A DNA stretch of 64,000 nt, taken from NCBI GenBank assembly GCA_000092065.1, contig CP000584.1; one strand, given 5' to 3'. The stretch comes from Ostreococcus lucimarinus. Taxonomy: Eukaryota. Below are positions 26,626 through 46,212 of the stretch, piece after piece. The position numbers and the translations under genes were made by a program. Position 1 is the first letter of the stretch. Every line of letters begins with the position of its first letter. Under the pieces are notes generated by a model, which searched no databases, was not told where the DNA came from, and saw nothing but the letters and a program-made list of their open reading frames with translations.

Positions 26626-26858
26626 CTGCGTCACCGTCGTTCGCACCACCGTCAGTCGTCGCGCGCGTCTTCGCGCGCGCTTTCGTCGCCGCGCGTCGTC
26701 CGAACGTCCCCGTTCGTCGTCGTCGTCTTATCGTTATCCGAAGCGCCATCCTCTCCGACCGCGCCTCGCCGCCGCGCGTCGCGCGCGCGCGTCCCGCGCG
26801 TCGTCGACGCGTCGCGAGCGCGTCGTCTCCCGGTCACCGCGCGCGCCGTCGCGCGCAC
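26626..26858 (-). other. Spliceosomal intron (233 nt, phase 0) in the CONSTANS-like gene.
   Basis: Minus-strand donor GAG|GTGCGCGCGAC. Internal CGACTGACGGTG. Acceptor GACGCAG|GCG. It fuses the two halves into a canonical B-box. Confidence 0.6.
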
Positions 26859-26999
26859 CTCGTCCTGCGCGCAGTACCAACTCGCCGCGCGCCGCGCGCC
26901 TTCGGGACACGATTCGCACGCGGCGCCCGTCGCGTCGCGCGTCGCGTCCTCGGCGCGCGCGCGATCGGACGCGCTCGCGCGCGCGTCGCTCGGCGCCAT
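26859..26999 (-). CDS. CONSTANS-like protein, exon 1 (MAPSDAR...ACESCPEGARRAASWYCAQDE, the N-terminal half of the B-box).
   Basis: CxxCx8-9YCxxD pattern in the frame of ORF 26652-26999. Joined to exon 2 it gives C-x2-C-x9-YC-x2-D-x-A-x-LC-x2-CD-x3-H-x-AN-x5-H-x-R. Confidence 0.6.
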
Positions 27000-30300: not shown

Positions 30301-33300
30301 CGCGCGTGACTTGCTTCTTCTTCACCTGTCGGGGCTCAAAGCTTACGACATTGCATGGTCAGTTCGTAACCGCAGCCGTCGAAGAAGGCGACGACGTGAG
30401 AATGACGCAAATTCGTGTTGTTGGTCAGCGTGGCAGATGCACGTTCACGGCGATAAGTGATGACGATGGGCGCTATGCAATCGATGTACTCGATCGCTCC
30501 GGGAACGTCCCCGTCAAGGCGAATATGCTCATCGGCGCGTATAAGGAAGAAGTTTTTGGTGAAGAATTCGAAGTTCCCCTCCTGGATACGAGCGATTCAG
30601 ATGGCGATGATGATTCGCTAAACGTTCCGACGCGAGTGTTACTCGTACTTCGTCGAAAGAACAGTTCGCTTGCGGCGCGTCTCGGGCATGAAGTCCCGGA
30701 TTACAGCAGCTCCTACTACGACGGCGAAACGCATCAGTATCTGGATCAACATGGATATAGTCCACCGTATGGCAGCTCCTACTACGACGGCGAAACGCAT
30801 CAGTATCCGGATCAACATGGATACAGTCCACCGTTCGGCAACACGCCATATGTGCACACTATTTACGATAACGCCTACGATTCAGGCGTTCCTGCCGCCA
30901 AAGTAGAGTTCCAAAGTTTGACGAATTTACGTCTGGAAAACACAACTCTTATGAAGAAAGATGGAGTTGCTGATGGTTGGAATGCAGGGGGGTCCTCGAA
31001 TCAGTCAATGTTTAATGTCACGGGTCGTTTTACTGGAATGGACGCGGTTGAGGGTATCAGGGTCGAATGCTCCTGCGATGATGGCGAATATGTCGTTGGT
31101 TTGAGCTACGCAGAGCACATAGCTAACTTTTCCAAAGCAGCGACCGAATTTGCCATTCACTGTCGTGGTAAAGGCTATGAGCCAGCCATCATTTCAGGTG
31201 GTCGCTCTTACGCAAATTCAAATAACTATCGGATGGCCATGGAGACGAGACCATCGCATCACATGACGGATCTATACGATGTGTACCAGTCAACTGACAT
31301 CACATCTTCGCCACCCATCTCCACGGCGAATGATTTCTCATATGCAGCAGCGCAGAGGCGACTACTGGCTCCAACGAGTTCGTACCCTGCAAGAAGCCCG
31401 ACGTCAAACGAGTATCCAACGACGAGCCCGACGCCAAGCAGTCAATTATTGAACTCTTATCCTCAGTCGTATGATGCGCAAACGAATGAGTATCCTCAGT
31501 CGTATGATGCGACGACGTCTACTTATTTTCCACCCTACCACATCGATGACTATCTCGATCGAGGCTATCGTTCAAACATGTGTATGAAGAAGACATTCAC
31601 CATTAAACTTACACGCAGTGGGCGTGTTTTGTTTTATGAAACGCAAGGCCATTGGCTGTACGATCATCCGGTGCAGCATGAAAATTTTCACCATACTCAG
31701 ACGTGGCAAACTGGTGGACAGTCGCCGCCGTACGGCTACACGGAGCAAACGCCACCGTACGGCTACGCGGAGCAAACGCCGCCGTACTCTGCGCGCGACA
31801 AGTCTTCCCTGGGCGCACATGCCGACGTTTCGCACACGGGCCAAGCTTTGCATGAGTACCATGAACCTGCTCAACTCATAGTACCGGTCGCGTACGCAGA
31901 AAGAGCACACAGCCCCTTGTTTGTGCGAATGGTGGTAATTTCACAAAATGTGACGCTGAGCGACGCCGACATACGTTGGACAGTGCCGACTCCCTCACCG
32001 CCGCCATCACCGCCACCATCACCACCGCCACCGTCACCACCGCCATCACCACCACCACCGCCGCCGCCGCCGTCCCCGCCGCCGCCGCCGCCTTCACCGC
32101 CGCCGCCGCCGCCGTCGCCACCGCCGTCGCCGCCGTCGCCGCCGCCGCCGCCCCCTGCGAAAGCTATCAGAGGTAACAGCGTCGATTGGACGGTGAAGAA
32201 GAACGTCGATAGTACCTCATCGGGGGGAGTTTTCTTGGTCGGATGGAATTCGAAGGGTGCTGCAGTGAGCGCGCGGGCGATCCATTCGTCCTCAAATGTC
32301 ACTCGAGGGATATCTGCAACTTTGGAACGTGGGCCTTATTCAATGGGTCACACTTGCGTAGGTCTGACGAGCTCTGCGGATCGCGAGACGGTTGATAGTT
32401 CTAACATCGATTTCGCCATGTGTTGCGAATGGGGTTATCTTGGTGTTTTTGAAAAGGGATCGCGCAAATGGCGTGCTAGTGGAAACTTGCAGGATAGTTG
32501 TTCACAAACGGACACGCTACAAATCGTCGTGAACGATGGGGATGGCGCGATCGAGTACTTCAAGAATCGGCGTCGCGTGTATACCAGTCAACGGACACCT
32601 CAGTATCCGCTTCACGCAGACGCTGAAGTCTATTTCGGAAGACTGGGTGAAGTTGTTTGGATTGAACGAATTCCATCACCGCCTCCTTCTCCTCCTCCAC
32701 CGCCTTCACCGCCGCCGCCACCATCACCGCCCCCGCCGCCCCCGCCTTCACCGCCGCCATTGCATCAGTTTACATCCGCGGATGTAGATCCACGCATCAA
32801 CACGGCCGCGGCTATTCCGCACATCACACGCGAGGAGTTCGAGGATTTCATCGAAAATATAACAGGCTTCCCTAATTTGGGACACGCCATCGTGATGGAT
32901 GAAATCTGGCAGTATATCGACGACGACGGGGACGGTGTTTTGAGTGAGATTGAGTTCCAGCACGCGTCTTACAAAATGCACACTCACGAGCTGTACGTTG
33001 ATCCCATCATCGTCTACCCCAGCCGCTCGATAAAACATCGCTACGGCTTCAAGGTTTCCAAATCAGTCAGGAGTGATTCTAGTGCCTGCGTGGGTGACGC
33101 CGTATCTTACGACGGTCCCTCTGCGTCGCTTGGTTCGTGCGAATTGACTTCGGAGAAGGAGCCTGTAGAGATTACATTATGGGGAAATGGTTTTGCTGGC
33201 ACACCGTCGACGACCACTATTTACAGCTTGGGAGCTTCCAAGAATGGAGACACTACGTACATCGCGAGCGCGCGCGTTTCTGTCGGCACCTGGTTCACGT

Positions 33301-36300
33301 ACAACGTGTGTGCGGTGATAAAGTTTCGCGTGATAAAGAAAGATGGTCAGTGCTCGATCGTCGTTGACCAAGTTCATAAGATGTGGCCAAGCCTGGTGTC
33401 TTCGAAATGTGGCATCACGCCACCCATCTATGACAGATGGAGCCGCTACATGGTTGCATCCGTTGCGACGTCGGCGACGAACGGCTTTGCTGGCATGAAA
33501 TCTTCTATGTTCAAGAGCTGCGCTGCGAGTTGTGAGAATGCGATTCTACTTCGACACAATAAAACTGTGCCGTACAATACATCTGAGTGGCGAAATTATT
33601 ACGAGTCTCTAGTAAAACGAGACATGGAGCCGACTACTCACGTCGACTGCTCTCACCGAGAAGACATGGTTGTGCTCGGCAGAGAAGAGGACACGCTCGC
33701 CATGCCCATGGTGCTCTCATCCATGGCTAGGAAGCAATGGCTTCTTGACCTCGATTCGGCGCGGCGAAAGCAGAGTACCAGTGAGAATGTCACCAAATTG
33801 CTCGGCACCATGCACTCCAATTTTGCCATCAGTTCAGATTTATGGCTGCCGGATATTGTACACGTGTTTGACAAAATTCCAAAGCCTGAAAATGCTTCTT
33901 CGGGTCCATCCAAGGAGGATGAAATTCACGTGGTGGATAACGATCTCGGGAATTCTTTCTCAAACTTTGCGCGTATAGAAGTAAACCGACTCCAACTTGA
34001 ACACAAGCGCATTGGAGAAAAAACATTTACAGATGACACCGCCGCTGTGGTCAAAGGCGCTATTCTTTTCCCACAGCATCTCACGGGCGGCAGTCCAAAC
34101 TGTGGATTGTTTGAAGCCATGATTCGTGTTTACGACGTGGAAGAAGACGGCGAGCCAGATGTATACTTGACTGAAGAAGATGGCTCGTTCGAGATGGCTT
34201 TAACGCGTGGAAAGACCTTCAGAATTGAAGCCTTTTATGAAGGACACACCATTTGCTACGCCGGAAGTCAGCCTCAAGACGCGACGTCACCCAATGGCTA
34301 TGATTTCGAAGGAGGACAGCAGGCGTGTGTCAAGACGACCCACACGCTCGCTCGTGTCGGCGATGGCAACTTTTTATACTTTACAGATATTACGCGCGGA
34401 AATATTGACCTTGGTTTGTATGCGGGAGAATGCGAAGAAAGGTACACGGGCGAAGATGTCAAGTTTAGGGTAACGCCCGTCAACGGCTGTCATAAACCCG
34501 TCATCGTTTCCGAAACCGACATCAACGAGCGATGGCATACGATTGAGGATATCCTACCGGAAGGCCAGCAGGTTGGCGACAACGCCCGCGTGTGGAAATT
34601 CGCGGCGATGGATTACTCCATCACGCTAGCGAGTGGTTCCGACATCAGTAGAGTTACCGAAAAAGCGTGTCCAGACGAGGCATGCCCAGATTACTGGGAT
34701 GGATGTCAAGTCGAGCCAGACGACATGCGTCAATTTTTCCGCAATCGAAACTCACTCGAAAGACTTGCGCTGATGAGAGATGAATTTGCGTGGAATTCCA
34801 TCAGGTACAAGTATCACGGATATATCTGCGCACAAATAATGGACATTCCTCGAATCACTGATAACGAGCTCAGACTCGAGACTTGCGTAGGCAACTTAAC
34901 TTCCGGAATGTTGACAGAGAAGCATTTACTGGGTTCGTCTGATCACGACACAATCAGCGTCGCCGCTGACAAATCGTTGAGGGTGAAGGTGTTTGAACTT
35001 CACGATCTCACACCGAATGCCGCAGATGCCCCATTTAAATGCACAAAGTTTCCAAATACGCAAAGTCGCACGGGAAACACGAAATTTTCCGTTCGACAGA
35101 CTGTCACAAATGAAGAAGATAACGTGTGTCATCCAAATCGCGGGGGTGGGCCCCTGTGCGATTTTGAAGTTAATATATCAACGGCTGACGTCGGCAAACT
35201 CATCTTTCCGACGGAAGAAGATACGGATCAGGAAACTACCCAAATGGTCATTGCCGCGGGGTATCCAAACCTTGCAAACCCGTATCGACGAGAAGTCACG
35301 ATCACTGTGACACGCGACGATACACCCTTGGACGGTGGTCTTGGGCGATCGCTGCAAGCAACGATGACGCGAGTACTTATCCCATTGGGCTCCAAGCCAC
35401 GAGGAGGATTTGACACGGGAGATGACACCTTGTGGGCGACAGTGCCTATTGATGGATTGGTATACACAGTGGTGCACGATCCGCCAGGTGGTAATTCTGT
35501 AGCCGAGCTGCAATCTGGATCTGAGATTACGATTCAGTGGGAAATCGCTTCAGCTCGCTCTGTGAAAGTTGGCAGATCGATCGAGCTCAACCTCGGTTTC
35601 GCAGGTAAAACTACGTTTGATCTAGGCTTTAACGCCGGTTACACCGCAGAGGCTGCTACAAAATCGAGCGTTCTCACGTTGGAGACGGAGAAAGATTTCG
35701 GACACAAAGAATCTGGTCCACACTTCACCGCGAAGGCGACGTCCGAAGAAGTGTGGGAGACGACGGTTACGATGGATCGACACATCCGGAGCAGCGACGA
35801 TGAAGGCACACCTGGACGTCCGGGCGACGTCATTTTAGGAGGTGGTATCGAACTCGTGTACAAGGTATCAGATACGCTCGACGTAGGTACTGTTGACGAC
35901 TGCTTAACTACGGGTGTTGGTATAACCTGGTTACCGCGTCGACCAACCTCTTACGTGTTCAACGTCTTTTCCATCGAGTCTCAAGTGCTGCCGAATCTCT
36001 ACTTTCTGTATACTGTCGCCAAGTCTGGCGAAAATACGGCGAAGACACCGTCAGATAGAATCGTCAAGGATGGATCGGGTATGCGATATGAGTGCGCGTC
36101 ATCGCCGTGCTCTAACTCAGAAATGAATCAACATTGGGCAAGCTACATACTGAGACGAATCCATACGTGGAAGCGAACGTTGCTTTGGTCCTCGCCCGAA
36201 GTTTACTGGATGCCAAAGGGTGCGAGTTATGAAAAGAACTACAAAGCATACGATCGCATCAATGAACCGTACATCGATTCACGTTCCCTCTTTGAACGGC

Positions 36301-39300
36301 GCATGTCATCCGCGTTGGCACAGCGTGATTCCAAGCGTGATCCATCGATTCTGAGGGTTGCATTCGAGCTGAGTAAAATGTGGTACGAGCAATCCCTCCT
36401 CAGTGTGGGTGACAGAGGCATGCTTCGTTCGAAACCTCACATCCCTGCTTTATTTCTCACTGCAGGACTGGAAATTCCGAGACTAGCACCATTTCTCGAA
36501 AATTCACGAGCAGCGTCTTTTGCTTCGATCGCGTACCCACGTTCGTCAAAGGGTGCGTGGTCATTCGATGAAGTGGTAAATGACCAAACAAACATCGGAA
36601 TGTACTCTTTTGGGATGAACGAAGTCGCCGCTCGTGACCTCGATGCGCAGGTCAAGAAGTGCGACGGTGTACTGTGCGAGACCAGTGGAGAATTCGACGC
36701 CGCACCACATGACGTGTTGTACGGAGGATCACTGAACGCCATGGGTGAGACCGGCGACCTTCGCGCCACGGACCCTTCGCGCTTAATGGCGTCTCTTACT
36801 GGGACTCCTGGTCCAACCGGAATGCTTCAAAAGGATGCCGTCGCGAGCGGCGGAGAAGAGGAGACGATATACTTAACTTTTGGTGGTGGTGGACATGCGT
36901 TGGAATTCTCTTTCAGCGCAAAGGAGTCCATCAACCGCGATGCATTCGCGTACTCGCTTGACTTTGATGCAAGCGCCGAAAACACAAACAACATGAAGTT
37001 CTCGGGCTCACCAATACCCACCATCGAGTTTAATCGAGCGACAGACATCGCCAGAACGCTGTCCACGGATCGTATCTTTGCGTGGAACAAGTACGGAACG
37101 ATGACGACGGTGTATTCTCTCGCGGATCCAGATTATGGCGATAAATTTGTTCTGAAAGTCGGAAGCGATGCGCGATTCGGCACACCGCTCTTCATGACAA
37201 TGGGCGGTAGATCCATGTGTCCCGGCGAATTGACGACGATGTGGCGCGAATCGGGAAATATCATTGAAAGACCTCGTTCGTTATCCTTTGGTACGCTCCC
37301 GCTGAACCCAGGAGAGCGCGCTGTTCACGAAATAACTATTCAGAATGAATCTCCATACAGAGAAGCCCGACCGCTGTATTTACGTATCGTTGATGGACAC
37401 TCAGAGTCGTTACGATCGCTGGTGCGCGCAGCGCTGAACATCATCAAGGATGATGAATCAGCTTCGGCACAACATGTAGCCACAGTTGTCACGAACACTG
37501 CTGCAAACTCAGTAGCTTCGGCATCCCTGTCCATGGCCACTGTCATAGAGAAAGTTGAAGAGGCAGCTGGCAGCGGCGACGCGACTGCCCTGAGTGTTAT
37601 GCAAGTCGTCGTCGCCGAAGTCGAGAGCGTCAGTAAATCGGCTATGACGCCGTTACAGGATGTAGAGATTACCGTGAACGGCAAGAAGGTGGTACCTGTC
37701 GCTGAGTGGCTTCCTTTGAAGCATGTCATCGGCGATGCTCTTGAATCACAACGGACCGTTCACAAGACTGTGTTCAACTTGGGTTTCAAGCCAACGGAAA
37801 CCTCGCATCCTATCATTGAACACATTCAAGTTGAAATTGGATCTCTGTGCGAAATGCAAATCTCATATGATGGAGCTGGTCTGTATCGCGATCCAATCGC
37901 CGTCAAGGCTCAACTTGAAAAGATGCGATGGGAATCCAAGTGTCCGAGCGTGACGTTTTCCAAGTCCACCGTCATTGACAGTGAAATCACGCGCGCAAAC
38001 GCGACTGCGCCGCCGCTTCGTTTGGTGGTGGTCAATCCCGATTCTGGAAACTTGTGGGATCCTAGCAGCGCCAGTAGACTCGAAAAGGTTGTCGTACAGT
38101 ACAGACCGCTTTCGGGTGGCGAATGGATTACTGCGAAGGAGGATCATGTGAAGTACAAAGACGACTCGTACAAGAAAAATCTCATCTGCGAACATTCTCG
38201 AACGAGCGGATGCACGTGGGACTGGGATTTGAACAACAAATACGACAAGTTACTCAGCGGATACAAGGACGGTGCGTACGAGGTTCGCGTTAAAAACTTT
38301 TGCTCGGGCGGTGACGCTTTCGCCGCGACCGAGGTGCACGAGTACGTCGGCGATAAGACGCTATTACTCTTCACGGATACGAAAAACCCGCTCGTCGAGC
38401 AGCACGTGTCGTCACCCGCGGCGCGCACCGTCACCATCGTGTACGCGGAGGAAATCGATTGCGCAGATCCACCGACCTTCGAAGTGGCGCAAACTCACGA
38501 CGAATCCTGCGTCGCCGTCGCGGGCGATGGCACAGTCAGCGCGGCTATCATTCGTGAGTCTTACGAGCAAACGTGCCTCAACACCGGCGTTCAAGGAAAG
38601 TGGATGATGCAATATCCCAACAATGAGGATGCTCCGAATCCTGGATTGTACAGAGTCACCGTCAGAGACATACGTGACAAAGCCGGTAACCCTTTCGTCG
38701 GCGATTTGACGATAAACTACGTCGTGGGTGACGTCGTCGATGACTGTGACATTTTGAAAGCATCCAAAGATGACCTCACCCCGCTCATCGGTTTGGGAAA
38801 TTTCGCCGATGTTCAAGGCAATACCATCTGGGGGGTGTACTCTAAAAATATCGACTGTCGCTCGCAGCGAGTCACCATCACGAAGAGTTTTGATCAATCG
38901 TGCCGATCCACGAGCACAGAAATTGGCACAACCAACTTCACGCTTGCGTGCGTGAACGTCGGCGGAACGGGACAATGGATCATGAAATATCCTGAAGATC
39001 TGGAATCTGGAGTTTACACCGTGCGAGTTCAAGGCGTGAAAGATCGCACTGGTCACGAAGCGTCTTCTTTCATTCGCAAGTTTACAACGCTTCATAACTC
39101 GGATGGAACGTTGAACGAATGCGACGACGCGTCCGCCTCTTTTGCCATCGGACTTGGGCGGATGCGTCGTCGACGTCTCGCTCCGAGCGCGTCCGCGACA
39201 AAGACGTCCACAAACTTGATTCTGTCCGATCTCGCCATCGTCGTGTTCGCTATCTGCGCGCTCGTGATGATCATCAAGAAAAGAATCGCGCTGCCCGCGG

Positions 39301-39371
39301 ATGAGAGTGAGCTGCGCGAACGCGAAGCCTTCGACAAGGTGGACATTCCGCGCTATGGTTCATCTTTGTGA
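27321..39371 (+). CDS. Giant single-exon gene encoding a 4016-aa secreted, C-terminally membrane-anchored protein. It has an N-terminal signal peptide, Cys-rich and extensin-like PPSPPP modules, an EF-hand loop and internal duplications. No family assignment is possible from sequence alone.
   Basis: A 12,051-nt uninterrupted ORF is vanishingly unlikely by chance. Signal peptide MAAMRARFARGASMSALLLALCALASLLGVARG. PPSPPP blocks at 27617-27672, 31990-32157 and 32675-32760. EF-hand loop DDDGDGVLSEIEFQHA (~32921-32962). TM anchor LILSDLAIVVFAICALVMIIKKR (~39211-39280) with a short tail. Confidence 0.85.
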   Translation: MAAMRARFARGASMSALLLALCALASLLGVARGGGSPSPSPVHCSARWIDVNKGGCPSCGPGTYSKRYQIDRDPAYDGRRCPHVNGHVSYGHDCEAPPCPPPPPSPPPPSPPPPPPGQFVPVQVSINDPVPRVSDAYDFHILTSHPSCDSQNDCFESHIETDVSEHHVGLRCDVTVQKKDQVCATFGRHMPCRLWNDFYPTTLTLTDEHGDIVEGDYVIEYECYFELANGELVPEPTKVKKTLHEFSVSKGCDLKMNLNRDSKAELAAYLLSGADEFNIADCSSLKSIYAAKEAVFRIFDSNPTDGRLDHEEILIGVEAHSMDTQIVNHWKDIVDAEGGDGLFLTLSNFMSADIAPRGCQSGAGDVVTFTEATYPTSDPGRETGSRQCGEMAGSMKTTWSFPRSMQLGDWSCVYIDGLLYSQLLAQTSRNAVSMQNSVTDIRPVIGSFHDAEQSLAAHFTFAGVSNARLISSESPRADGQEVVPTLSIDDTYTGSLRVFTASQHGKHGACLNSCQGCTFHSYKYIGEPFKNDFAVSMQIFIPTQLSSNSGFRKKSEPLMSFTSDASGSMQHSIKLRLGTALSKFSLQFIHEKVNSVTGHRDELSEPIPLGAFGRWTSIGFSFHPKDGLTLYRFSVEGGRVTHEIKVPSNNDEWKSRLRDTLHLMHRREFFKENRIEYDDLRVYTGRVKNNTFIDAYKCDALGAQCAPRAHATPNSRRVVCVMLDVHDSSGGDARAPYSCTGALYYDGGAIEVRAKMDLTGVAFEFRDTAWHESSFEILRRTHDPSGDNAFDTVVLVDGGLNGCASMFSSITYLDREAGQQPNSRWQYKIKTKTDDVDVSFLSLTTHFKTPWIGQIVGEVMAGKSVVPVGEVRICADFVKPNGTFLMYRSHNHSNLALHMPVVHTSNLTISAEQQAHRATDGLHLKPDSIRVARGQYLRVNLDYWSAIQEVEVCTATGENNFRTFVREFDPGYSVNHGHECKLRETNATQTFSASRVTCFFFTCRGSKLTTLHGQFVTAAVEEGDDVRMTQIRVVGQRGRCTFTAISDDDGRYAIDVLDRSGNVPVKANMLIGAYKEEVFGEEFEVPLLDTSDSDGDDDSLNVPTRVLLVLRRKNSSLAARLGHEVPDYSSSYYDGETHQYLDQHGYSPPYGSSYYDGETHQYPDQHGYSPPFGNTPYVHTIYDNAYDSGVPAAKVEFQSLTNLRLENTTLMKKDGVADGWNAGGSSNQSMFNVTGRFTGMDAVEGIRVECSCDDGEYVVGLSYAEHIANFSKAATEFAIHCRGKGYEPAIISGGRSYANSNNYRMAMETRPSHHMTDLYDVYQSTDITSSPPISTANDFSYAAAQRRLLAPTSSYPARSPTSNEYPTTSPTPSSQLLNSYPQSYDAQTNEYPQSYDATTSTYFPPYHIDDYLDRGYRSNMCMKKTFTIKLTRSGRVLFYETQGHWLYDHPVQHENFHHTQTWQTGGQSPPYGYTEQTPPYGYAEQTPPYSARDKSSLGAHADVSHTGQALHEYHEPAQLIVPVAYAERAHSPLFVRMVVISQNVTLSDADIRWTVPTPSPPPSPPPSPPPPSPPPSPPPPPPPPSPPPPPPSPPPPPPSPPPSPPSPPPPPPAKAIRGNSVDWTVKKNVDSTSSGGVFLVGWNSKGAAVSARAIHSSSNVTRGISATLERGPYSMGHTCVGLTSSADRETVDSSNIDFAMCCEWGYLGVFEKGSRKWRASGNLQDSCSQTDTLQIVVNDGDGAIEYFKNRRRVYTSQRTPQYPLHADAEVYFGRLGEVVWIERIPSPPPSPPPPPSPPPPPSPPPPPPPSPPPLHQFTSADVDPRINTAAAIPHITREEFEDFIENITGFPNLGHAIVMDEIWQYIDDDGDGVLSEIEFQHASYKMHTHELYVDPIIVYPSRSIKHRYGFKVSKSVRSDSSACVGDAVSYDGPSASLGSCELTSEKEPVEITLWGNGFAGTPSTTTIYSLGASKNGDTTYIASARVSVGTWFTYNVCAVIKFRVIKKDGQCSIVVDQVHKMWPSLVSSKCGITPPIYDRWSRYMVASVATSATNGFAGMKSSMFKSCAASCENAILLRHNKTVPYNTSEWRNYYESLVKRDMEPTTHVDCSHREDMVVLGREEDTLAMPMVLSSMARKQWLLDLDSARRKQSTSENVTKLLGTMHSNFAISSDLWLPDIVHVFDKIPKPENASSGPSKEDEIHVVDNDLGNSFSNFARIEVNRLQLEHKRIGEKTFTDDTAAVVKGAILFPQHLTGGSPNCGLFEAMIRVYDVEEDGEPDVYLTEEDGSFEMALTRGKTFRIEAFYEGHTICYAGSQPQDATSPNGYDFEGGQQACVKTTHTLARVGDGNFLYFTDITRGNIDLGLYAGECEERYTGEDVKFRVTPVNGCHKPVIVSETDINERWHTIEDILPEGQQVGDNARVWKFAAMDYSITLASGSDISRVTEKACPDEACPDYWDGCQVEPDDMRQFFRNRNSLERLALMRDEFAWNSIRYKYHGYICAQIMDIPRITDNELRLETCVGNLTSGMLTEKHLLGSSDHDTISVAADKSLRVKVFELHDLTPNAADAPFKCTKFPNTQSRTGNTKFSVRQTVTNEEDNVCHPNRGGGPLCDFEVNISTADVGKLIFPTEEDTDQETTQMVIAAGYPNLANPYRREVTITVTRDDTPLDGGLGRSLQATMTRVLIPLGSKPRGGFDTGDDTLWATVPIDGLVYTVVHDPPGGNSVAELQSGSEITIQWEIASARSVKVGRSIELNLGFAGKTTFDLGFNAGYTAEAATKSSVLTLETEKDFGHKESGPHFTAKATSEEVWETTVTMDRHIRSSDDEGTPGRPGDVILGGGIELVYKVSDTLDVGTVDDCLTTGVGITWLPRRPTSYVFNVFSIESQVLPNLYFLYTVAKSGENTAKTPSDRIVKDGSGMRYECASSPCSNSEMNQHWASYILRRIHTWKRTLLWSSPEVYWMPKGASYEKNYKAYDRINEPYIDSRSLFERRMSSALAQRDSKRDPSILRVAFELSKMWYEQSLLSVGDRGMLRSKPHIPALFLTAGLEIPRLAPFLENSRAASFASIAYPRSSKGAWSFDEVVNDQTNIGMYSFGMNEVAARDLDAQVKKCDGVLCETSGEFDAAPHDVLYGGSLNAMGETGDLRATDPSRLMASLTGTPGPTGMLQKDAVASGGEEETIYLTFGGGGHALEFSFSAKESINRDAFAYSLDFDASAENTNNMKFSGSPIPTIEFNRATDIARTLSTDRIFAWNKYGTMTTVYSLADPDYGDKFVLKVGSDARFGTPLFMTMGGRSMCPGELTTMWRESGNIIERPRSLSFGTLPLNPGERAVHEITIQNESPYREARPLYLRIVDGHSESLRSLVRAALNIIKDDESASAQHVATVVTNTAANSVASASLSMATVIEKVEEAAGSGDATALSVMQVVVAEVESVSKSAMTPLQDVEITVNGKKVVPVAEWLPLKHVIGDALESQRTVHKTVFNLGFKPTETSHPIIEHIQVEIGSLCEMQISYDGAGLYRDPIAVKAQLEKMRWESKCPSVTFSKSTVIDSEITRANATAPPLRLVVVNPDSGNLWDPSSASRLEKVVVQYRPLSGGEWITAKEDHVKYKDDSYKKNLICEHSRTSGCTWDWDLNNKYDKLLSGYKDGAYEVRVKNFCSGGDAFAATEVHEYVGDKTLLLFTDTKNPLVEQHVSSPAARTVTIVYAEEIDCADPPTFEVAQTHDESCVAVAGDGTVSAAIIRESYEQTCLNTGVQGKWMMQYPNNEDAPNPGLYRVTVRDIRDKAGNPFVGDLTINYVVGDVVDDCDILKASKDDLTPLIGLGNFADVQGNTIWGVYSKNIDCRSQRVTITKSFDQSCRSTSTEIGTTNFTLACVNVGGTGQWIMKYPEDLESGVYTVRVQGVKDRTGHEASSFIRKFTTLHNSDGTLNECDDASASFAIGLGRMRRRRLAPSASATKTSTNLILSDLAIVVFAICALVMIIKKRIALPADESELREREAFDKVDIPRYGSSL
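30708..30839 (+). repeat. In-frame 2 x 66-nt tandem duplication inside the giant gene (SSYYDGETHQY[L/P]DQHGYSPP[Y/F]G).
   Basis: Two adjacent near-identical 66-mers differing at ~4 positions. Similar short PPYGY(T/A)EQT and NEYPQSYDA(Q/T)T repeats follow at ~31440-31800. Confidence 0.85.
31990..32157 (+). repeat. Low-complexity (CCGCCGYCR)n tract encoding (S)PPPSPPPP extensin/HRGP-like repeats. Similar tracts lie at 27617-27672 and 32675-32760.
   Basis: Direct reading: ccgccgccatcaccgccaccatcacc...ccgccgccgccgccccct. Confidence 0.8.
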
Positions 39372-39858: not shown

Positions 39859-41631
39859 ATGCGACGCAGGGCGATGATGGCGCGAGCAAAGAATGTGGAG
39901 TTGCGCTCGAGCGAGGACGTCGGCGCGGCGAAGACGTACGAGGAGGCGGCGCCGCGCGCGGACACGCCGCCCAAGCGCGAACGGAGCGTGGAGGCGGCGA
40001 GTGAGTCGGCGGCGGACGAAGAGGCAACGCGTAAAGAAGCGATGCTCATCGAAACGTTCGATTCATCGCGGGCACCGAGGGGCCGAGGCGAAGGCGTCGC
40101 GGGGTCTCGTCGAGCGACGCCGAACGCGTCGATTGACGAACGCGCGCCAGGCGCGGGATTGCGGCTGAAAGGGAACGAAGCGATGAAGTGCGGCGATTTT
40201 GCACTCGCACAGGCGTTATACGGCGAAGCGCTGGATGCCGCGCGAGAAGAGGATGCGCATCTTCGAGCGGTGGTGTTTTGTAATCGCGCGTTGGCGTTTC
40301 ACAAGATGAACGAATACGATGCCGCGTTGTGCGACGCCAAGTGCGCGGAAGAGCTCGCGCCGACTTGGAGTAAACCCAAGCATAGACTCGCTGAGGCGTG
40401 TTTACGCCTGGGGTCGTACACTCTCGCCGTCACATACGCGCGTCTGGGCGAAAAACTCCAGTTCGAGGAGGGCGATTTCAGCAAATCGTTTCGCGACGTG
40501 CTGGACGAAATCGCGATTTGCGCCGCGGAGGACGGGTCCGTCGCCGGGTTTGACGGCAAATTAATTTACGTCCGAAGCGCGGGCGAAGACGCATGGCTCG
40601 GACGAGAGGCTCCTTTGAACGCGGCTTTCGATGAGCTAGAAGGCGAAGTCGCGGATCCTATGTTTGGTGGCGGCTCGGCGAAGGACGCGAATTCGATGAA
40701 ACCCGTGCACGCGAGGTCACTTCCGGAGGCAATTTCTAAAGCAAACGACGGTGACCGCATACTCTTACTGCGTGGCGTTCACAACGGGCTCGGAACCGTG
40801 GTTGAGATTGACAAGCGCGTGCTCATACGAGGCGAAGGCGCGCTTCGAGACACGACGTGCGATTGCCGAAACAACGCGGCGTTATTTCGCATCAAGCGTC
40901 CGTGCGTGATTCAAAATCTCGACATCGATTTCACAGGGTTTAGCGAGGCGATTCGCATCAAGGGAGATTCGCGCGTGAACGCGTTGATCGAGAATTGCGT
41001 GATCAGATCGAGCGGCGGCGACTGCGTTGCGGTCGGTGGCAAATCTGCGCCGACATTTCGCAACTGCTCAATCACGGGAAAATTGAGCGGCGTTCGCTCG
41101 TACGCCCAAGCAACGCCGACGTTTATCGATTGCAACATCACGCGCTCGGGATTACAGGGCGTGCTCGCCATGAAGGAATCACGAGTCATCATGCACGGCT
41201 GCGCGGTGCAAAACAACGAAGAAGACGGCGTCGTCGTCATGGAACAGTCCAACGTGGTGATGAGCAAATGCGTCGTACAAGACAACAAAGGCCCGGGCGT
41301 GGACGTTTCGAATACGGCAAAGGTTGTCGTGAACGATTGCGACATCGACGCCAATGTCGGCGGACTGTGGCTGTGGGACCATTCGTGCGCGCACGTCGCC
41401 GCGTCCAGCGTGAACGGGGGCAAATCTCACGCCGTGCTCGTCGACGTCAACGCTCGCGCGAATTGTCGCAGAACCAAAATCATCGGCGTCGTGCACGCGT
41501 CGGAGACGGGCGCGCGGGGCGTTCGGGGCGAAGGCACCGTCGTCGAGACGTTGGAAACGCCCACGTCGCTTCCCCAAGAAGCCAAAGGCGCGTTCAAGCA
41601 CGACCCGTGCGGCTTTTCACGAAAACAATAA
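39859..41631 (+). CDS. Protein with N-terminal TPR repeats and a C-terminal right-handed parallel beta-helix (PbH1) repeat region.
   Basis: TPR segment GLRLKGNEAMKCGDFALAQALYGEALDAAREED...CNRALAFHKMNEYDAALCDAKCAEELAP. Repeated beta-helix rungs NCVIRSSGGDCVAV / NCSITGKLSGV / DCNITRSGLQGV / GCAVQNNEEDGVVV / KCVVQDNKGPGVDV / DCDIDANVGGLWL. Confidence 0.7.
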   Translation: MRRRAMMARAKNVELRSSEDVGAAKTYEEAAPRADTPPKRERSVEAASESAADEEATRKEAMLIETFDSSRAPRGRGEGVAGSRRATPNASIDERAPGAGLRLKGNEAMKCGDFALAQALYGEALDAAREEDAHLRAVVFCNRALAFHKMNEYDAALCDAKCAEELAPTWSKPKHRLAEACLRLGSYTLAVTYARLGEKLQFEEGDFSKSFRDVLDEIAICAAEDGSVAGFDGKLIYVRSAGEDAWLGREAPLNAAFDELEGEVADPMFGGGSAKDANSMKPVHARSLPEAISKANDGDRILLLRGVHNGLGTVVEIDKRVLIRGEGALRDTTCDCRNNAALFRIKRPCVIQNLDIDFTGFSEAIRIKGDSRVNALIENCVIRSSGGDCVAVGGKSAPTFRNCSITGKLSGVRSYAQATPTFIDCNITRSGLQGVLAMKESRVIMHGCAVQNNEEDGVVVMEQSNVVMSKCVVQDNKGPGVDVSNTAKVVVNDCDIDANVGGLWLWDHSCAHVAASSVNGGKSHAVLVDVNARANCRRTKIIGVVHASETGARGVRGEGTVVETLETPTSLPQEAKGAFKHDPCGFSRKQ

Positions 41632-41676
41632 TCTCACATTCCTCCGCAATCCATCGCCCGCGTTCGCGCGCGCCGC

Positions 41677-42258
41677 CTATTCGTCCCCGAAATCGAACCC
41701 GCCGCTCTCGACGAGTCGCGCTTCGTCGTCCGTCGCCGTCGCCGTCGTCCCCGCGTCGACGTCGATCCTCGCGCGACGTCGTTCGCGCGTCGCGTCTCCC
41801 TCCTCTCGCGCGCGCGTCCGCCTCCGCGCGTCGTCCTCGCGAATCGCGCGCTTCGCCTCCGCGGTTCTCGCCCTCGCCTTCGCGTTCGCGTCGTCGCGTT
41901 CTCGCCGCGCGTCGTCTCGCGCCCTCTCGTTCGCCCTCGCGCTTTCGATCGCCCTCGCGCACGTCTCCGCGAGTCCTTCCCCTCCCGCCCGTCGCGTCCT
42001 CGCCGATTCCTCGCCCCCGTACGCGCGCGCCGCGCCGTCGCCCGCGCGTCCGCGCGACCACGCCGTGTGCGTCGGTTCGCCGTCGCGCGCGGTCGGCATC
42101 GTCGCGCCGCGAAACCCGTGTCGCGCGAGCGCCTCCATCGACACCGCCGCGCGTCGCGCCGTCGCGCCTTTCGTCGTTTTTTCTTCCCCGTCGTCGTCGT
42201 CGTCGTCGTCGTCGTCGCTCGACGTCGCGCCGAGCGCGTCCATGAATTTCGCCGGCAT
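41677..42258 (-). CDS. Hypothetical highly charged (Asp/Glu/Arg/Ala-rich) protein starting MPAKFMDALGATSSDDDDDDDDDGEEK. Whether it is really coding is uncertain.
   Basis: 193-codon ORF with a poly-Asp run and a C-terminus ...LVESGGFDFGDE. It sits in a zone of heavy GC-driven ORF overlap. Confidence 0.3.
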   Translation of the reverse strand: MPAKFMDALGATSSDDDDDDDDDGEEKTTKGATARRAAVSMEALARHGFRGATMPTARDGEPTHTAWSRGRAGDGAARAYGGEESARTRRAGGEGLAETCARAIESARANERARDDARRERDDANAKARARTAEAKRAIREDDARRRTRAREEGDATRERRRARIDVDAGTTATATDDEARLVESGGFDFGDE

Positions 42259-42510
42259 GCGCGCGGCGACCGACCGCGACCGCGCGACTGTGTTTGCAGT
42301 CCCGATACACATTTCGCGAATCGTCGCGCGCACGCGATGCGTTAAATACGGTTAAATACGGCGCGACGGCGACGCGAGCTCCGGCGCGCGCGGCGACCGA
42401 CCGCGACCGCGCGACTGTGTTTGCAGTCCCGATACACATTTCGCGAATCGTCGCGCGCACGCGATGCGTTAAATACGGCGCGACGGCGACGCGAGCTCCG
42501 GCGCGCGCGC
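42252..42510. repeat. Tandem direct duplication of a ~117-nt unit. The first copy carries an extra 10-nt TTAAATACGG duplication, giving a 127-nt period.
   Basis: cggcgaccgaccgcgaccgcgcgactgtgtttgcagtcccgatacacatttcgcgaatcgtcgcgcgcacgcgatgcgttaaatacggcgcgacggcgacgcgagctccggcgcgcgc occurs twice, back-to-back, starting near 42264 and 42391. Confidence 0.85.
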
Positions 42511-42736
42511 GCTGACGTGGCGAACCGAAACGGCGCCGTCGTCGCCGCACACCTCGACGGCGCGCGCGACGCGACGGCGCGCGACGCCGGCGCGACGGAC
42601 GACGGCGCGCGCGCGGGCGGGCGAATCGACCGCGCGCGCGATTCGCGACGCGCGACCGGGCGCGCGAGGACGACGCGCGTCGCGCGAGGACGACGCGCGA
42701 GGACGACGCGGGACGTGCTGACGCGGCGTCGCGGCG

Positions 42737-43411
42737 ATGGCGACGCTCGCGCGCGTGCCGCGCGCGCGGAGCGGCACGGAACTGAGCGGGATGGAGGCGA
42801 AGAGCGCGAAAACGACGTCGACGACGACGCAGACGGGCGCGAGCGGGGCAGGGGCGACGCGAGGGAAGGGAAGGCGAAGCTGCGTGAAGGCGGCGCGCGG
42901 GCGCGGGACGGCGAAGCGACGCGGACCGCGCGTCGCGTTCGCGCGCGAGGTGTGCGAGGTGATCGGACGCGCGGATGCGGACGTCGATCGAACGCCCAGG
43001 GGTGAACCGTCGAAGTGTTCGTCGTGTGGATTGCACGTCGTCGGGTACTCGTTCGAGTGTTTGGCGTGCGCGGGGGCGGGCGCGGGGAACGACGGCGGCG
43101 CGTACGCGCTGTGCGCGATGTGCTTTACGGCGCACGCGCACTTGACGGCGGCGCCGGAGTTGGCGCGAGCGCACGGGATCACGTATTTGATTCACAAACA
43201 CGCGCCGTCTGTGTTCGTCAGAGGCGGGGACGACGATCAGATGATGCTCGATGAGATTTTGCGAGATCGTCGCGAGCTCATGGTCAACGGCGGCGCGCCG
43301 CCCGAGCGCGAAGCCTCGACCGGGGACCTCGAGCGGTGTTTTGAACGCGAGCGTCAGCCGAGCGCGGGGAGCGACGAATCGGAGGATGTTTTGCAGTATT
43401 GTCCCGTGTGA
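42737..43411 (+). CDS. Hypothetical protein with a ZZ-type zinc-finger-like Cys/His cluster.
   Basis: KCSSCGLHVVGYSFECLACAG...YALCAMCFTAHAH fits CxxC-x7-G-x4-CxxC...(Y)xLCxxC-x4-HxH. The rest is low complexity. Confidence 0.4.
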   Translation: MATLARVPRARSGTELSGMEAKSAKTTSTTTQTGASGAGATRGKGRRSCVKAARGRGTAKRRGPRVAFAREVCEVIGRADADVDRTPRGEPSKCSSCGLHVVGYSFECLACAGAGAGNDGGAYALCAMCFTAHAHLTAAPELARAHGITYLIHKHAPSVFVRGGDDDQMMLDEILRDRRELMVNGGAPPEREASTGDLERCFERERQPSAGSDESEDVLQYCPV

Positions 43412-45294: not shown

Positions 45295-46212
45295 ATGAGT
45301 CACGAGCTCGACGGGTGGATCGCGGCGCTGCGCAAATGCGAGCCATTGGAGGAAGACGACGTCAAGCGATTGTGTCAGATGGCGATCGAGATCTTGGTGG
45401 AAGAGTCGAACGTGCAGACGATCGATTCGCCGGTGACGATATGCGGGGACATTCACGGGCAGTTTTACGATTTGTTGGAACTGTTTAAAGTCGGCGGCGA
45501 CTGCCCGGATACAAACTATTTGTTCATGGGGGACTTCGTCGATCGCGGGTTTTACAGCGTGGAGACGTTTTTGTTGCTCCTGGCGCTGAAGGTGAGGTAC
45601 CCGGATCGAATGTATCTCATTCGGGGGAATCACGAGTGTCGACAGATCACGCAGGTGTACGGGTTTTACGACGAGTGTTTGCGCAAATACGGGAGCGTCA
45701 ACGTGTGGCGATATTGCACGGATGTGTTCGATTACCTTTCGTTGTCTGCGCTCATAGATAACAAGATATTTTGCGTGCACGGGGGGTTGTCCCCGAGCAT
45801 CACGACGATCGATCAGATTCGAACGATCGATCGTAAACAAGAGGTGCCGCACGAAGGCGCGATGTGCGATTTGCTTTGGAGCGACCCCGAGGACGTCTCC
45901 GGCTGGGGGCTTTCCCCTCGAGGGGCGGGGTATTTGTTCGGCGACGACGTGTGCACGTCGTTCACACAGACGAATAGCGTAGACATGATCGCGCGAGCGC
46001 ATCAGCTCGTGATGGAGGGGTACAAGTGGATGTTTAACAAACGGCTCGTCACTGTGTGGTCGGCGCCGAATTACTGCTACCGCTGCGGCAACGTCGCGGC
46101 CATCTTAGAACTGGACGAAAACCTGGCGCACGACTTCAAGGTTTTCGAGGCGGCACCGCAAGAGGCGCGCGGGGTGCCGGCGAAGAGGGCGACGCCCGAT
46201 TACTTCCTGTAA
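45295..46212 (+). CDS. PPP4C: Serine/threonine protein phosphatase 4 catalytic subunit (PPP family, PP4c/PPX).
   Basis: Near-identical to PP4c across its full length: [16 protein letters not shown]...[16 protein letters not shown]...[14 protein letters not shown]...[21 protein letters not shown]...[20 protein letters not shown]...DYFL. Confidence 0.9.

What the first reader, a model, noticed from the sequence alone, without database searches (positions are those of the whole stretch)
42252..42510. Tandemly duplicated ~120-bp element carrying splice-site-like motifs
Two adjacent near-identical copies include a 10-nt internal TTAAATACGG duplication in copy 1. On the minus strand each unit contains GTGCGCGCGAC, identical to the donor of the CONSTANS-like intron, and ACTGCAAACACAG. 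On the plus strand it contains TGTGTTTGCAG. The repeat is translated in three different frames by overlapping spurious ORFs (e.g. ...ATIREMCIGTANTVARSRSVAAR appears twice in ORF 41594-43201), which confirms it is not coding. It sits exactly at the 5' end of the putative gene 41677-42258. One possibility is an introner-like element, as described for Micromonas, that has duplicated in a 5'UTR or promoter. Another is a recent local duplication.
Basis: partly seen in the sequence, partly recalled or inferred. Interest (0 to 1): 0.5.

Follow-up and report, generated by a model that had tools for sequence, protein, structure and literature searches.

The report
Copy-number-variable tandem repeat in an algal promoter
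The repeat is real, but it is not a jumping intron: it is a stretch of one gene's own promoter in the tiny marine alga Ostreococcus lucimarinus that has been duplicated in place and varies from one to four copies among wild cells (up to 19 in a sister lineage), which is an ordinary kind of unstable promoter repeat.

Summary
Window 42259-42385 (127 bp) and 42386-42502 (117 bp) are identical tandem copies apart from one extra TTAAATACGG. The array starts at the base next to the ATG of a small minus-strand gene (41677-42258) and lies in the 478-bp divergent intergenic region shared with gene 42737-43411.

The organism is Ostreococcus lucimarinus, not Micromonas. The introner idea fails:
- The unit occurs nowhere else in the window or in any fetched contig, and all five metagenome hits are this same locus.
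- It is orthologous to promoter sequence at the same position in sister lineages.
- The 'donor' GTGCGCG is at chance frequency and is the most polymorphic site of the unit.
- The Ostreococcus branch motif GACTGACG is absent.
- The two 'acceptor' motifs are one sequence read on both strands.

Fifteen wild haplotypes carry 1, 2, 3 or 4 units. All 15 arrays differ, and diversity is about 20 times that of the flanks. A sister lineage has a 77-bp-unit array at the same promoter with 1 to 19 copies.

Best reading: a hypervariable promoter/5'UTR minisatellite generated by slippage or unequal exchange. Each unit carries a TATA-like box and a TTTCGCG(CG)AA palindrome. An effect on expression is inferred, not shown. 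Interest is modest.

The parts
42259..42385 (.). Unit 1 of the array (127 bp), next to the gene B ATG. It is the 117-bp unit plus a second TTAAATACGG.
42386..42502 (.). Unit 2 of the array (117 bp), identical to unit 1 except for the 10-nt indel.
42503..42509 (.). GCGCGCG, which repeats the first 7 nt of a unit. With CCGGC before it, it forms an imperfect direct repeat (CCGGC[AT]GCGCGCG / CCGGCGCGCGCG) flanking the single-copy allele. This is the inferred microhomology for slippage or unequal exchange.
42342..42361 (-). TTAAATACGG x2 (a third copy at 42469-42478). On the gene B strand it reads CCGTATTTAA, a TATA-like box 90 nt upstream of the ATG. It is nearly invariant among units (one unit reads TGAAATACGG, one 5' copy ends ...ACGT) and is conserved in sister lineages.
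42311..42321 (.). ATTTCGCGAAT palindrome (second copy 42438-42448). Conserved in 28 of 29 O. lucimarinus units; it reads TTTCGCGCGAA in the sister lineage. The resemblance to an E2F site (TTTSSCGC) is recalled from memory and was not tested.
42327..42341 (.). Hypervariable spacer between the palindrome and the TATA-like box (second copy 42454-42468). It reads CGCGCAC, CGTGTAC, CGTTCAC, CGTGGAC or CGTGCAC, or carries a 13-nt deletion.
42286..42301 (.). GACTG-TGTTTG-CAGTC small hairpin (second copy 42413-42428). This is the source of both 'acceptor-like' motifs. One T/C polymorphism lies in the loop.
41677..42258 (-). Gene B: 193-aa acidic/charged protein found only in Ostreococcus, with a poly-Asp tract. 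Its ATG abuts the array, so the unit holds its 5'UTR and core promoter.
42737..43411 (+). Gene C: 224-aa Cys-rich protein found only in Ostreococcus (XP_001417306.1 is a shorter model of it), transcribed divergently from the same intergenic region.
42511..42522 (.). GCTGACGTGGCG, an ACGT-core (G-box/ABRE-like) element just outside the array. It is conserved in the sister lineages, and each added unit moves it 104-127 bp further from gene B.

Best explanation
The feature is a hypervariable minisatellite (VNTR) made of the native proximal promoter and 5'UTR of gene B (41677-42258, minus strand), duplicated in place. It sits inside the bidirectional promoter shared with gene C in Ostreococcus lucimarinus.

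Shown:
- The single-copy state (117 bp between the gene B ATG and GCGCGCGCGCTGACGTGG) exists in wild haplotypes and is orthologous to promoter sequence at the same position in sister lineages.
- Wild O. lucimarinus haplotypes carry 1, 2, 3 or 4 units of 104-127 bp. All arrays differ, and diversity is about 20 times that of the flanks.
- A sister lineage has a 77-bp-unit array, with different unit boundaries, at the same promoter with 1, 3, 8, 9 or 19 copies.
- Within units, the TTTCGCG(CG)AA palindrome and the TTAAATACGG (TATTTAA on the gene B strand) motif are almost fully conserved, while the spacer between them is hypervariable.

Inferred:
- The first duplication arose by replication slippage or unequal sister-chromatid exchange between the short GC-rich direct repeats that flank the single-copy unit (CCGGC[AT]GCGCGCG ... 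CCGGCGCGCGCG).
- Later unequal exchange or gene conversion expands, contracts and shuffles the units.
- The internal 10-nt duplication and the 8- and 13-nt deletions are small-scale slippage at short direct repeats.
- The reference strain's two identical units are a recent re-duplication or homogenisation from an L011-like single-copy allele.

Inferred and weaker (about 0.4): each unit is a self-contained core-promoter module (TATA-like box 90 nt upstream of the ATG, in a genome whose neighbouring promoters are mostly TATA-less). Copy number would then change start-site choice, transcript 5' leaders (with upstream ATGs) and the distance to the conserved ACGT element, and so tune expression of gene B and possibly gene C.
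For: - Structure and position.
- Organism: PP4c is identical to O. lucimarinus CCE9901 XP_001417307.1, and gene C clusters with XP_001417306.1.
- Single locus: there is no other copy in the 64-kb window. All 5 JGI metagenome contigs matching a 27-nt unit core map to this locus. Viral contigs gave 0 hits.
- Copy-number polymorphism: 15 complete arrays come from independent assemblies. One copy: L001, L002, L005, L008, L011. Two: window, L003, L004, L009, L016. Three: L010 (a 931-kb contig), L017 and probably L007. Four: L012.
- Diversity: pi is 0.043-0.048 in units against 0.0019-0.0023 in the 3-kb flanks, and 15 of 15 arrays are distinct.
- Orthology to native promoter: the alignment of the single-copy allele with L018 and L020 keeps CACATTTCGCGAATCG, CTTAAATACGGCGCG and GCTGACGTGGCG.
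- Recurrent amplification: L030/L035 has 19.1 copies of 77 bp at 98% match. L032, L033, L034 and L036 have 9, 3, 8 and 1 copies. The unit boundaries differ, because the 77-bp unit includes the gene B ATG.
- Motif conservation against spacer variability.
- TATA-like run: it is the only A/T run of 6 or more in the gene B upstream region, and such runs are absent from the 160 nt upstream of 6 of the 10 neighbouring genes.
- Flanking microhomology.
- Background: promoter tandem repeats are known to vary and to alter expression (Vinces et al. 2009, as cited in PMC3887541).
Against: - No transcript data were available. The start site, the 5'UTR extent and any effect of copy number on expression are untested.
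- Most wild haplotypes come from short-read metagenome assemblies. These can collapse or chimerise tandem repeats: L006 and L007 have N gaps, and L013, L015 and L020 end inside the array, as apparently does L037. Individual copy numbers and some of the haplotype diversity may therefore be assembly products. The finished-quality window (2 copies), the chromosome-scale L010 contig (3 copies) and the contigs named contig_N, which may be long-read assemblies (8, 9 and 19 copies), still differ.
- The whole O. lucimarinus genome could not be searched, so a few diverged copies elsewhere cannot be excluded.
- CG-rich microhomology is everywhere in this genome, so it does not by itself explain why this promoter amplifies.
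- The single-stranded unit has no unusual fold (z = -0.49).
Confidence: 0.8

Rival explanations
1. The structure is the same (a slippage-generated minisatellite) but it is functionally neutral. Copy number drifts, distal units are silent, and the motif conservation within units only reflects their recent common origin.
For: - Units within an array are young, so conservation of motifs among units is weak evidence for constraint.
- No expression data exist.
- Single-copy alleles are common: 5 of 15 in O. lucimarinus and L036 in the sister lineage.
Against: - The same two motifs are conserved between lineages whose flanks have diverged, while the spacer between them varies in both lineages.
- The same promoter has amplified with different unit boundaries in two lineages.
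- No comparable intergenic array exists elsewhere in the 64-kb window.
Confidence: 0.4
2. It is an introner-like or other mobile element that inserted in the 5'UTR or promoter and then duplicated.
For: - On the minus strand each unit has GTGCGCGCGAC, identical to a real intron donor at 26848-26858, followed 46 nt later by ACACAG.
- Related Mamiellophyceae (Micromonas) carry introner elements (PMC3879977, PMC4540971).
Against: - Only one genomic locus was found.
- The unit is orthologous to promoter sequence at the same position in sister lineages.
- The donor-like site is the most polymorphic site and is deleted in 104-bp units.
- GTGCGCG is at chance frequency.
- The Ostreococcus branch motif GACTGACG is absent from the array, though present in the real intron.
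- There are no terminal inverted repeats beyond (GC)n.
- Introner elements were reported absent from other published mamiellophycean genomes.
Confidence: 0.02
3. The repeat is a promoter for, or a copy of, a small non-coding RNA gene: a type-3 snRNA-like promoter (USE plus TATA) or a tandem snoRNA.
For: On the plus strand, TCCCGATACACAT followed about 26 bp later by TTAAATA superficially recalls the plant USE (TCCCACATCG, recalled from memory) plus TATA arrangement. The USE-TATA architecture itself is described in PMC8287931.
Against: - The USE consensus reported for O. lucimarinus is CCCRTAA (PMC8287931). It is absent from 42200-42750 on both strands.
- There is no run of four or more T that could act as a terminator.
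- There is no Rfam match at E<=1 apart from a chance miRNA hit elsewhere in the region.
- The fold is unexceptional.
Confidence: 0.03
4. The repeat encodes an N-terminal extension of gene B, so it is a coding repeat.
For: An in-frame ATG at 42312 gives MCIGTANTVARSRSVAAR ahead of MPAKFMD, and some gene callers used it (214-aa products). The 117-bp unit length is a multiple of 3.
Against: - Units of 127, 119, 118, 105 and 104 bp shift the frame.
- The upstream ATG is out of frame in L018 and in the sister lineage.
- The window's second unit is read in a different frame.
- The conserved start is M(P/A)(A/P)(K/R)FMD.
Confidence: 0.03
5. It is an assembly artefact: a spurious duplication in the reference or spurious variation in the metagenomes.
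For: Tandem repeats break or collapse short-read assemblies. Several contigs end in, or have N gaps at, the array.
Against: Multi-copy arrays with distinct unit sequences were recovered independently by many assemblers and samples. These include a 931-kb contig and contigs named contig_N. Unit-to-unit SNPs make the junctions resolvable.
Confidence: 0.02

Closest known systems
Promoter/5'UTR tandem repeats (minisatellites, VNTRs) that confer transcriptional variability, e.g. yeast promoter repeats (Vinces et al. 2009, as cited in PMC3887541)
   Same: - A tandem array lies within a few hundred bp of a start codon.
- Copy number is polymorphic within the species.
- Mutation and diversity are far above the flanks.
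- Units contain putative factor-binding motifs.
- Expansion and contraction by slippage or unequal exchange is the expected mechanism.
   Different: - The unit is long (104-127 bp, or 77 bp in the sister lineage) and is a whole core-promoter plus 5'UTR module, not a short AT-rich tract.
- It lies in a bidirectional promoter of an extremely compact, repeat-poor 13-Mb genome.
- An effect on expression has not been measured.
Micromonas introner elements (IE-A to IE-D; PMC3879977, PMC4540971)
   Same: - The host class is the same (Mamiellophyceae).
- The length is of the order of 100 bp.
- GT...AG-like strings are present on one strand.
   Different: - It occupies a single locus rather than hundreds of copies.
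- It is not inside a coding exon.
- There is no conserved donor and no branch motif.
- It is orthologous to native promoter sequence in relatives.
- The genus is one in which introner elements have not been reported.
Duplicated enhancer/promoter modules, e.g. tandem 72-bp-type repeats in viral and cellular promoters (recalled from memory, not tested)
   Same: A regulatory module with a TATA-like or factor-site content is repeated head to tail just upstream of a gene.
   Different: Here copy number is highly unstable in natural populations, and the repeated module includes the 5'UTR (and, in the sister lineage, the ATG itself).

Membership tests
Introner elements / introner-like elements | Many (tens to thousands) near-identical copies dispersed through the genome | tested here: not met
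   The 64-kb window has no other copy. All 5 JGI metagenome contigs with the 27-nt core are this locus. The whole genome could not be searched, so a few diverged copies cannot be excluded.
Introner elements / introner-like elements | Located inside genes and removed as spliceosomal introns, with conserved donor, branch point and acceptor | tested here: not met
   The array is intergenic/5'UTR. The donor-like GTGCGCG is the most polymorphic site and is deleted in 104-bp units. GACTGACG is absent from the array. Splicing itself cannot be tested without RNA-seq.
Introner elements / introner-like elements | Insertion at a position that is empty in relatives (a novel position) | tested here: not met
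   The unit aligns to orthologous promoter sequence at the same position in the L018 and L020/L036 lineages.
Transposon-type introners / MITEs | Terminal inverted repeats and target-site duplications | tested here: not met
   Only (GC)n self-complementary matches are found at the unit ends. The flanking direct repeat is GC microhomology shared with the unit itself.
Minisatellite / VNTR | Head-to-tail array of units of roughly 10-100+ bp | tested here: met
   The window has 127 + 117 bp. Up to 4 units occur in O. lucimarinus and 19 x 77 bp in the sister lineage.
Minisatellite / VNTR | Copy number polymorphic among individuals of one species | tested here: met
   Fifteen haplotypes of about 99.4-99.6% flank identity carry 1, 2, 3 or 4 units. 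Caveat: most are short-read metagenome assemblies.
Minisatellite / VNTR | Internal unit variants and elevated diversity relative to the flanks | tested here: met
   Pi is 0.043-0.048 against about 0.002, and 15 of 15 arrays are distinct. Unit types of 104, 105, 117, 118, 119 and 127 bp occur.
Functional promoter tandem repeat (expression 'tuning knob') | Copy number changes transcription of the adjacent gene | not testable with these tools
   No expression data were available. There is only indirect support, from motifs conserved within units and between lineages.
Type-3 (USE + TATA) snRNA-type promoter | Species-specific USE (CCCRTAA in O. lucimarinus, PMC8287931) upstream of a TATA box and a known small-RNA gene | tested here: not met
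   CCCRTAA is absent from 42200-42750 on both strands and there is no T-run. There is no Rfam hit.

The most novel reading that the evidence does not exclude
The same core-promoter module (TTTCGCG(CG)AA palindrome plus TATTTAA box) has been amplified independently, with different unit boundaries, in at least two Ostreococcus lineages. It is kept hypervariable in both (1-4 and 1-19 copies). The most novel reading is that this is a selected, contingency-like 'expression dial' for a fast-evolving protein specific to Ostreococcus (gene B and/or gene C) in a haploid picoeukaryote. It would give wild populations standing, rapidly reversible variation in transcription. The alternative within this reading is that the module is an intrinsic hotspot of replication or recombination instability.
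Probability: 0.15. Interest if true: 0.55.

Novelty: new member of a known kind. Interest (0 to 1): 0.3.

Why it matters
It removes a tempting but wrong lead: there is no evidence for introners in Ostreococcus from this locus.

It documents a concrete, highly polymorphic minisatellite in one of the most compact and repeat-poor eukaryotic genomes. The array sits on a bidirectional promoter.

Practical uses:
- It is a ready strain-level marker for O. lucimarinus and its sister lineage in cultures and long-read metagenomes.
- It is a known breakpoint for short-read assemblies.

Biologically, the parallel amplification of the same promoter module in two lineages offers a small, tractable case. Luciferase reporters were, from memory, established in O. 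tauri. They could test whether promoter repeat number tunes expression in marine picoplankton.

Tried and rejected
- Tandem Repeats Finder on the window does not list the 117/127-bp repeat. The repeat finder and a direct alignment were needed.
- The Rfam scan of 41600-43000 gave only a chance miRNA hit at E=0.91.
- Pfam and PDB sequence searches for genes B and C gave nothing informative. Both proteins have homologues only in Ostreococcus-type contigs.
- The viral-contig scan for the unit gave 0 hits.
- The single-stranded DNA fold of the unit is not unusual (z = -0.49), so there is no support for a special hairpin or cruciform mechanism.
- The USE/type-3 promoter idea was rejected.
- The coding-extension idea was rejected on frame arguments.
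- More distant lineages (O. tauri = L027; L021; L024) are syntenic, but their intergenic regions are not alignable to the unit. They could not date the origin of the module. A suspected CCAATCAAAA repeat in O. tauri was not confirmed by TRF.
- My first alignment attempt used wrong L011 coordinates and was discarded. One search is the valid one.
- Literature searches for Ostreococcus promoter repeats, minisatellites, E2F sites or TATA boxes found nothing specific to this locus.

Full report
**1. Observation**

Reading 41500-43300 and running repeat finder and a pairwise alignment confirm a head-to-tail duplication. Unit 1 is 42259-42385 (127 bp). Unit 2 is 42386-42502 (117 bp). They are identical except that unit 1 carries TTAAATACGG twice (42342-42361). 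The array is followed by GCGCGCG (42503-42509), which repeats the first 7 nt of a unit.

A 48-nt core occurs exactly twice in the 64-kb window against 0.00 expected. A sensitive local BLAST finds nothing else beyond CG-rich low-complexity matches. The array starts at the base after the CAT (= ATG, 42256-42258) of minus-strand ORF 41677-42258 ('gene B'). It lies in the 478-bp gap before plus-strand ORF 42737-43411 ('gene C'). Tandem Repeats Finder misses the repeat.

Three details in the finding need correction:
- The two 'acceptor' motifs are reverse complements of one another. They are one small hairpin, GACTG-TGTTTG-CAGTC.
- The cited peptide occurs once, not twice, in ORF 41594-43201.
- The left edge is 42259, not 42252.

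**2. Organism and context**

The PP4 catalytic subunit encoded at 45295-46212 is identical to Ostreococcus lucimarinus CCE9901 XP_001417307.1. Gene C clusters with XP_001417306.1, a shorter model of the same ORF. So this is Ostreococcus, not Micromonas.

Genes B and C have no Pfam or PDB match, and their homologues come only from Ostreococcus-type contigs. Synteny is conserved in every related contig, including O. tauri. The order is TPR/beta-helix gene, gene B (minus), gene C (plus), ankyrin gene, PP4c.

**3. Splice-like motifs are chance**

- GTGCGCGCGAC occurs 3 times against 1.02 expected, and two of those are the duplicated unit. GTGCGCG occurs 66 times against 67.8 expected.
- The third GTGCGCGCGAC is a genuine-looking donor. 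It belongs to a 232-nt, phase-0 intron in a B-box/CCT gene (26858 to 26627, minus strand). That intron carries the canonical Ostreococcus branch motif GACTGACG at 26650-26657 (motif from PMC3879977).
- The motif occurs 8 times in the window and never in the array.
- The unit has no terminal inverted repeats other than (GC)n self-complementarity, no Rfam match and no unusual fold.

**4. It is one locus**

A scan of JGI metagenome contigs with a 27-nt unit core gave five contigs. All are collinear with the window around 42.25 kb. Viral contigs gave none. Introner elements are defined by hundreds of dispersed intronic copies, and they were reported absent from mamiellophycean genomes other than Micromonas (PMC3879977).

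**5. Population variation**

Exact-protein look-ups of genes C and B returned 12 independent marine-metagenome contigs of the same locus. The DNA scan added two complete arrays. The metagenome-scan contigs are 99.3-99.6% identical to the window over 5-12 kb.

Copy number of the 15 complete arrays:

| Units | Haplotypes |
|---|---|
| 1 | L001, L002, L005, L008, L011 |
| 2 | window, L003, L004, L009, L016 |
| 3 | L010 (a 931-kb contig), L017, probably L007 |
| 4 | L012 |
| uncertain | L006 (N gap) |

- Units come in 104-, 105-, 117-, 118-, 119- and 127-bp forms. They differ by the 10-nt TTAAATACGG duplication, an 8-nt deletion and a 13-nt deletion.
- All 15 arrays are different. Nucleotide diversity is 0.043-0.048 in the units against 0.0019-0.0023 in the 3-kb flanks.
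- The site of the supposed splice donor is the most variable. CGCGCAC is replaced by CGTGTAC, CGTTCAC, CGTGGAC or CGTGCAC, or is deleted. This is the opposite of what a functional donor would show.
- The window's two units are identical and differ by one SNP from the single-copy allele L011. The reference array is therefore a recent duplication or homogenisation within an old polymorphic locus.
- Caveat: most contigs are short-read assemblies. Several contigs end in, or are gapped at, the array. Individual copy numbers may therefore be wrong, but the finished-quality window and the chromosome-scale L010 contig already differ (2 against 3).

**6. The unit is native promoter sequence**

The single-copy allele aligns with two sister lineages (L018, whose gene C is 84% identical, and L020, 90%). 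The alignment shows the same sequence at the same place. The conserved blocks are CACATTTCGCGAATCG, CTTAAATACGGCGCG and, just outside the array, GCTGACGTGGCG. L018 has two extra, degenerate TTAAATA modules. More distant lineages, including O. tauri, are syntenic but not alignable here.

**7. Parallel amplification**

In the L020 lineage, contig L030/L035 carries 19.1 copies of a 77-bp unit (98% match) at the same promoter. Other contigs of that lineage have 9, 8, 3 and 1 copies (L032, L034, L033, L036).

The 77-bp unit shares the core of the 117-bp unit but has different boundaries. It includes the gene B ATG and lacks the 24 nt distal to the TATA-like box. The two arrays therefore most likely arose independently. 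In both lineages the palindrome and TTAAATACGG are almost fully conserved across units, while the spacer between them varies.

**8. How it most likely works**

Shown: this is a polymorphic tandem array of the gene B proximal promoter and 5'UTR.

Inferred:
- It originated by slippage or unequal exchange between the short GC-rich direct repeats that flank the single-copy unit (CCGGC[AT]GCGCGCG / CCGGCGCGCGCG). Unequal exchange, gene conversion and micro-slippage followed.
- On the gene B strand each unit offers TATTTAA 90 nt upstream of the ATG (63 nt in the sister lineage). It is the only A/T run of 6 or more in that upstream region. Six of the ten neighbouring genes have no such run within 160 nt.
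- The TTTCGCG(CG)AA palindrome resembles the E2F consensus TTTSSCGC. That resemblance is recalled from memory and was not tested.
- Extra units would add upstream start sites, lengthen leaders that contain upstream ATGs, and move the conserved ACGT element 104-127 bp further from gene B. An effect on expression is plausible by analogy with yeast promoter repeats (Vinces et al. 2009, as cited in PMC3887541). It is untested, and a neutral reading remains open.

**9. Rivals**

Five alternatives are each contradicted by the tests listed in the structured fields:
- introner or mobile element
- small-RNA gene or type-3 promoter (the O. lucimarinus USE CCCRTAA, PMC8287931, is absent)
- coding extension of gene B
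- assembly artefact
- neutral minisatellite, which is the only serious rival and concerns function, not identity

**10. Verdict**

The introner interpretation is wrong and the 'local duplication' alternative is right. The locus is a hypervariable promoter minisatellite, a new member of a known kind. The recurrent amplification of the same promoter module in two lineages is the one mildly surprising element. Interest is 0.3.

Noticed in passing
L030 1722-3188 (= L035); also L032, L033, L034, L036: A sister lineage of O. lucimarinus (gene C about 90% identical) carries a 77-bp-unit array at the same promoter, with 19, 9, 3, 8 and 1 copies in different contigs. Each distal unit contains a copy of the gene B ATG followed by a 6-codon mini-ORF (ATGGCGCCGCGCCGTATTTAA).
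   Followed up: yes
window 42189-42227: A (CGT)n microsatellite encodes the poly-Asp tract of gene B. Its length differs between haplotypes, giving products of 193, 196 and other lengths.
   Followed up: partly
window 25498-26999 (minus): A CONSTANS-like B-box/CCT gene has a 232-nt phase-0 intron (26858 to 26627). The donor is GTGCGCGCGAC, the branch motif GACTGACG lies at 26650-26657, and the acceptor is GACGCAG. Splicing restores a canonical B-box.
   Followed up: partly
window 27321-39371 (plus): A single 4016-aa ORF with PPSPPP-rich tracts and internal 66- and 27-bp coding repeats coincides with the low-GC (about 51%) stretch of the window. Gene callers on related contigs give products of about 4010 aa.
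   Followed up: no
window 42511-42522; L018 5709-5720; L020 about 111-122: GCTGACGTGGCG (ACGT-core, G-box/ABRE-like) is conserved immediately distal to the array in the close lineages. ACGTGGC or CACGTG also occurs in the otherwise unalignable intergenic regions of L024 and O. tauri (L027). GCTGACGCGGCG recurs just upstream of the gene C ATG.
   Followed up: partly
L031 1-360: One haplotype (gene B about 90% identical) has a single partial unit. It then switches to AT-rich sequence and a different downstream gene, and its CCT gene lies next to the beta-helix gene. This looks like a structural rearrangement with a breakpoint at the array.
   Followed up: no
L006, L007 (N gaps); L013, L015, L020, L037 (contig ends): Short-read metagenome assemblies frequently break or are gapped exactly at this array. 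In L007 the left flank is duplicated on both sides of the gap, which is a scaffolding artefact.
   Followed up: partly
L024/L025/L026 intergenic (e.g. L024 3085-3135): In a more distant Ostreococcus lineage the region just upstream of gene B holds GAAAAATCGCCCGCGCGGGAAAAATCTCCCGCGCGCGAATC. This contains TTTCCCGC-type E2F-like sites, a possible functional counterpart of the TTTCGCGAA palindrome.
   Followed up: no
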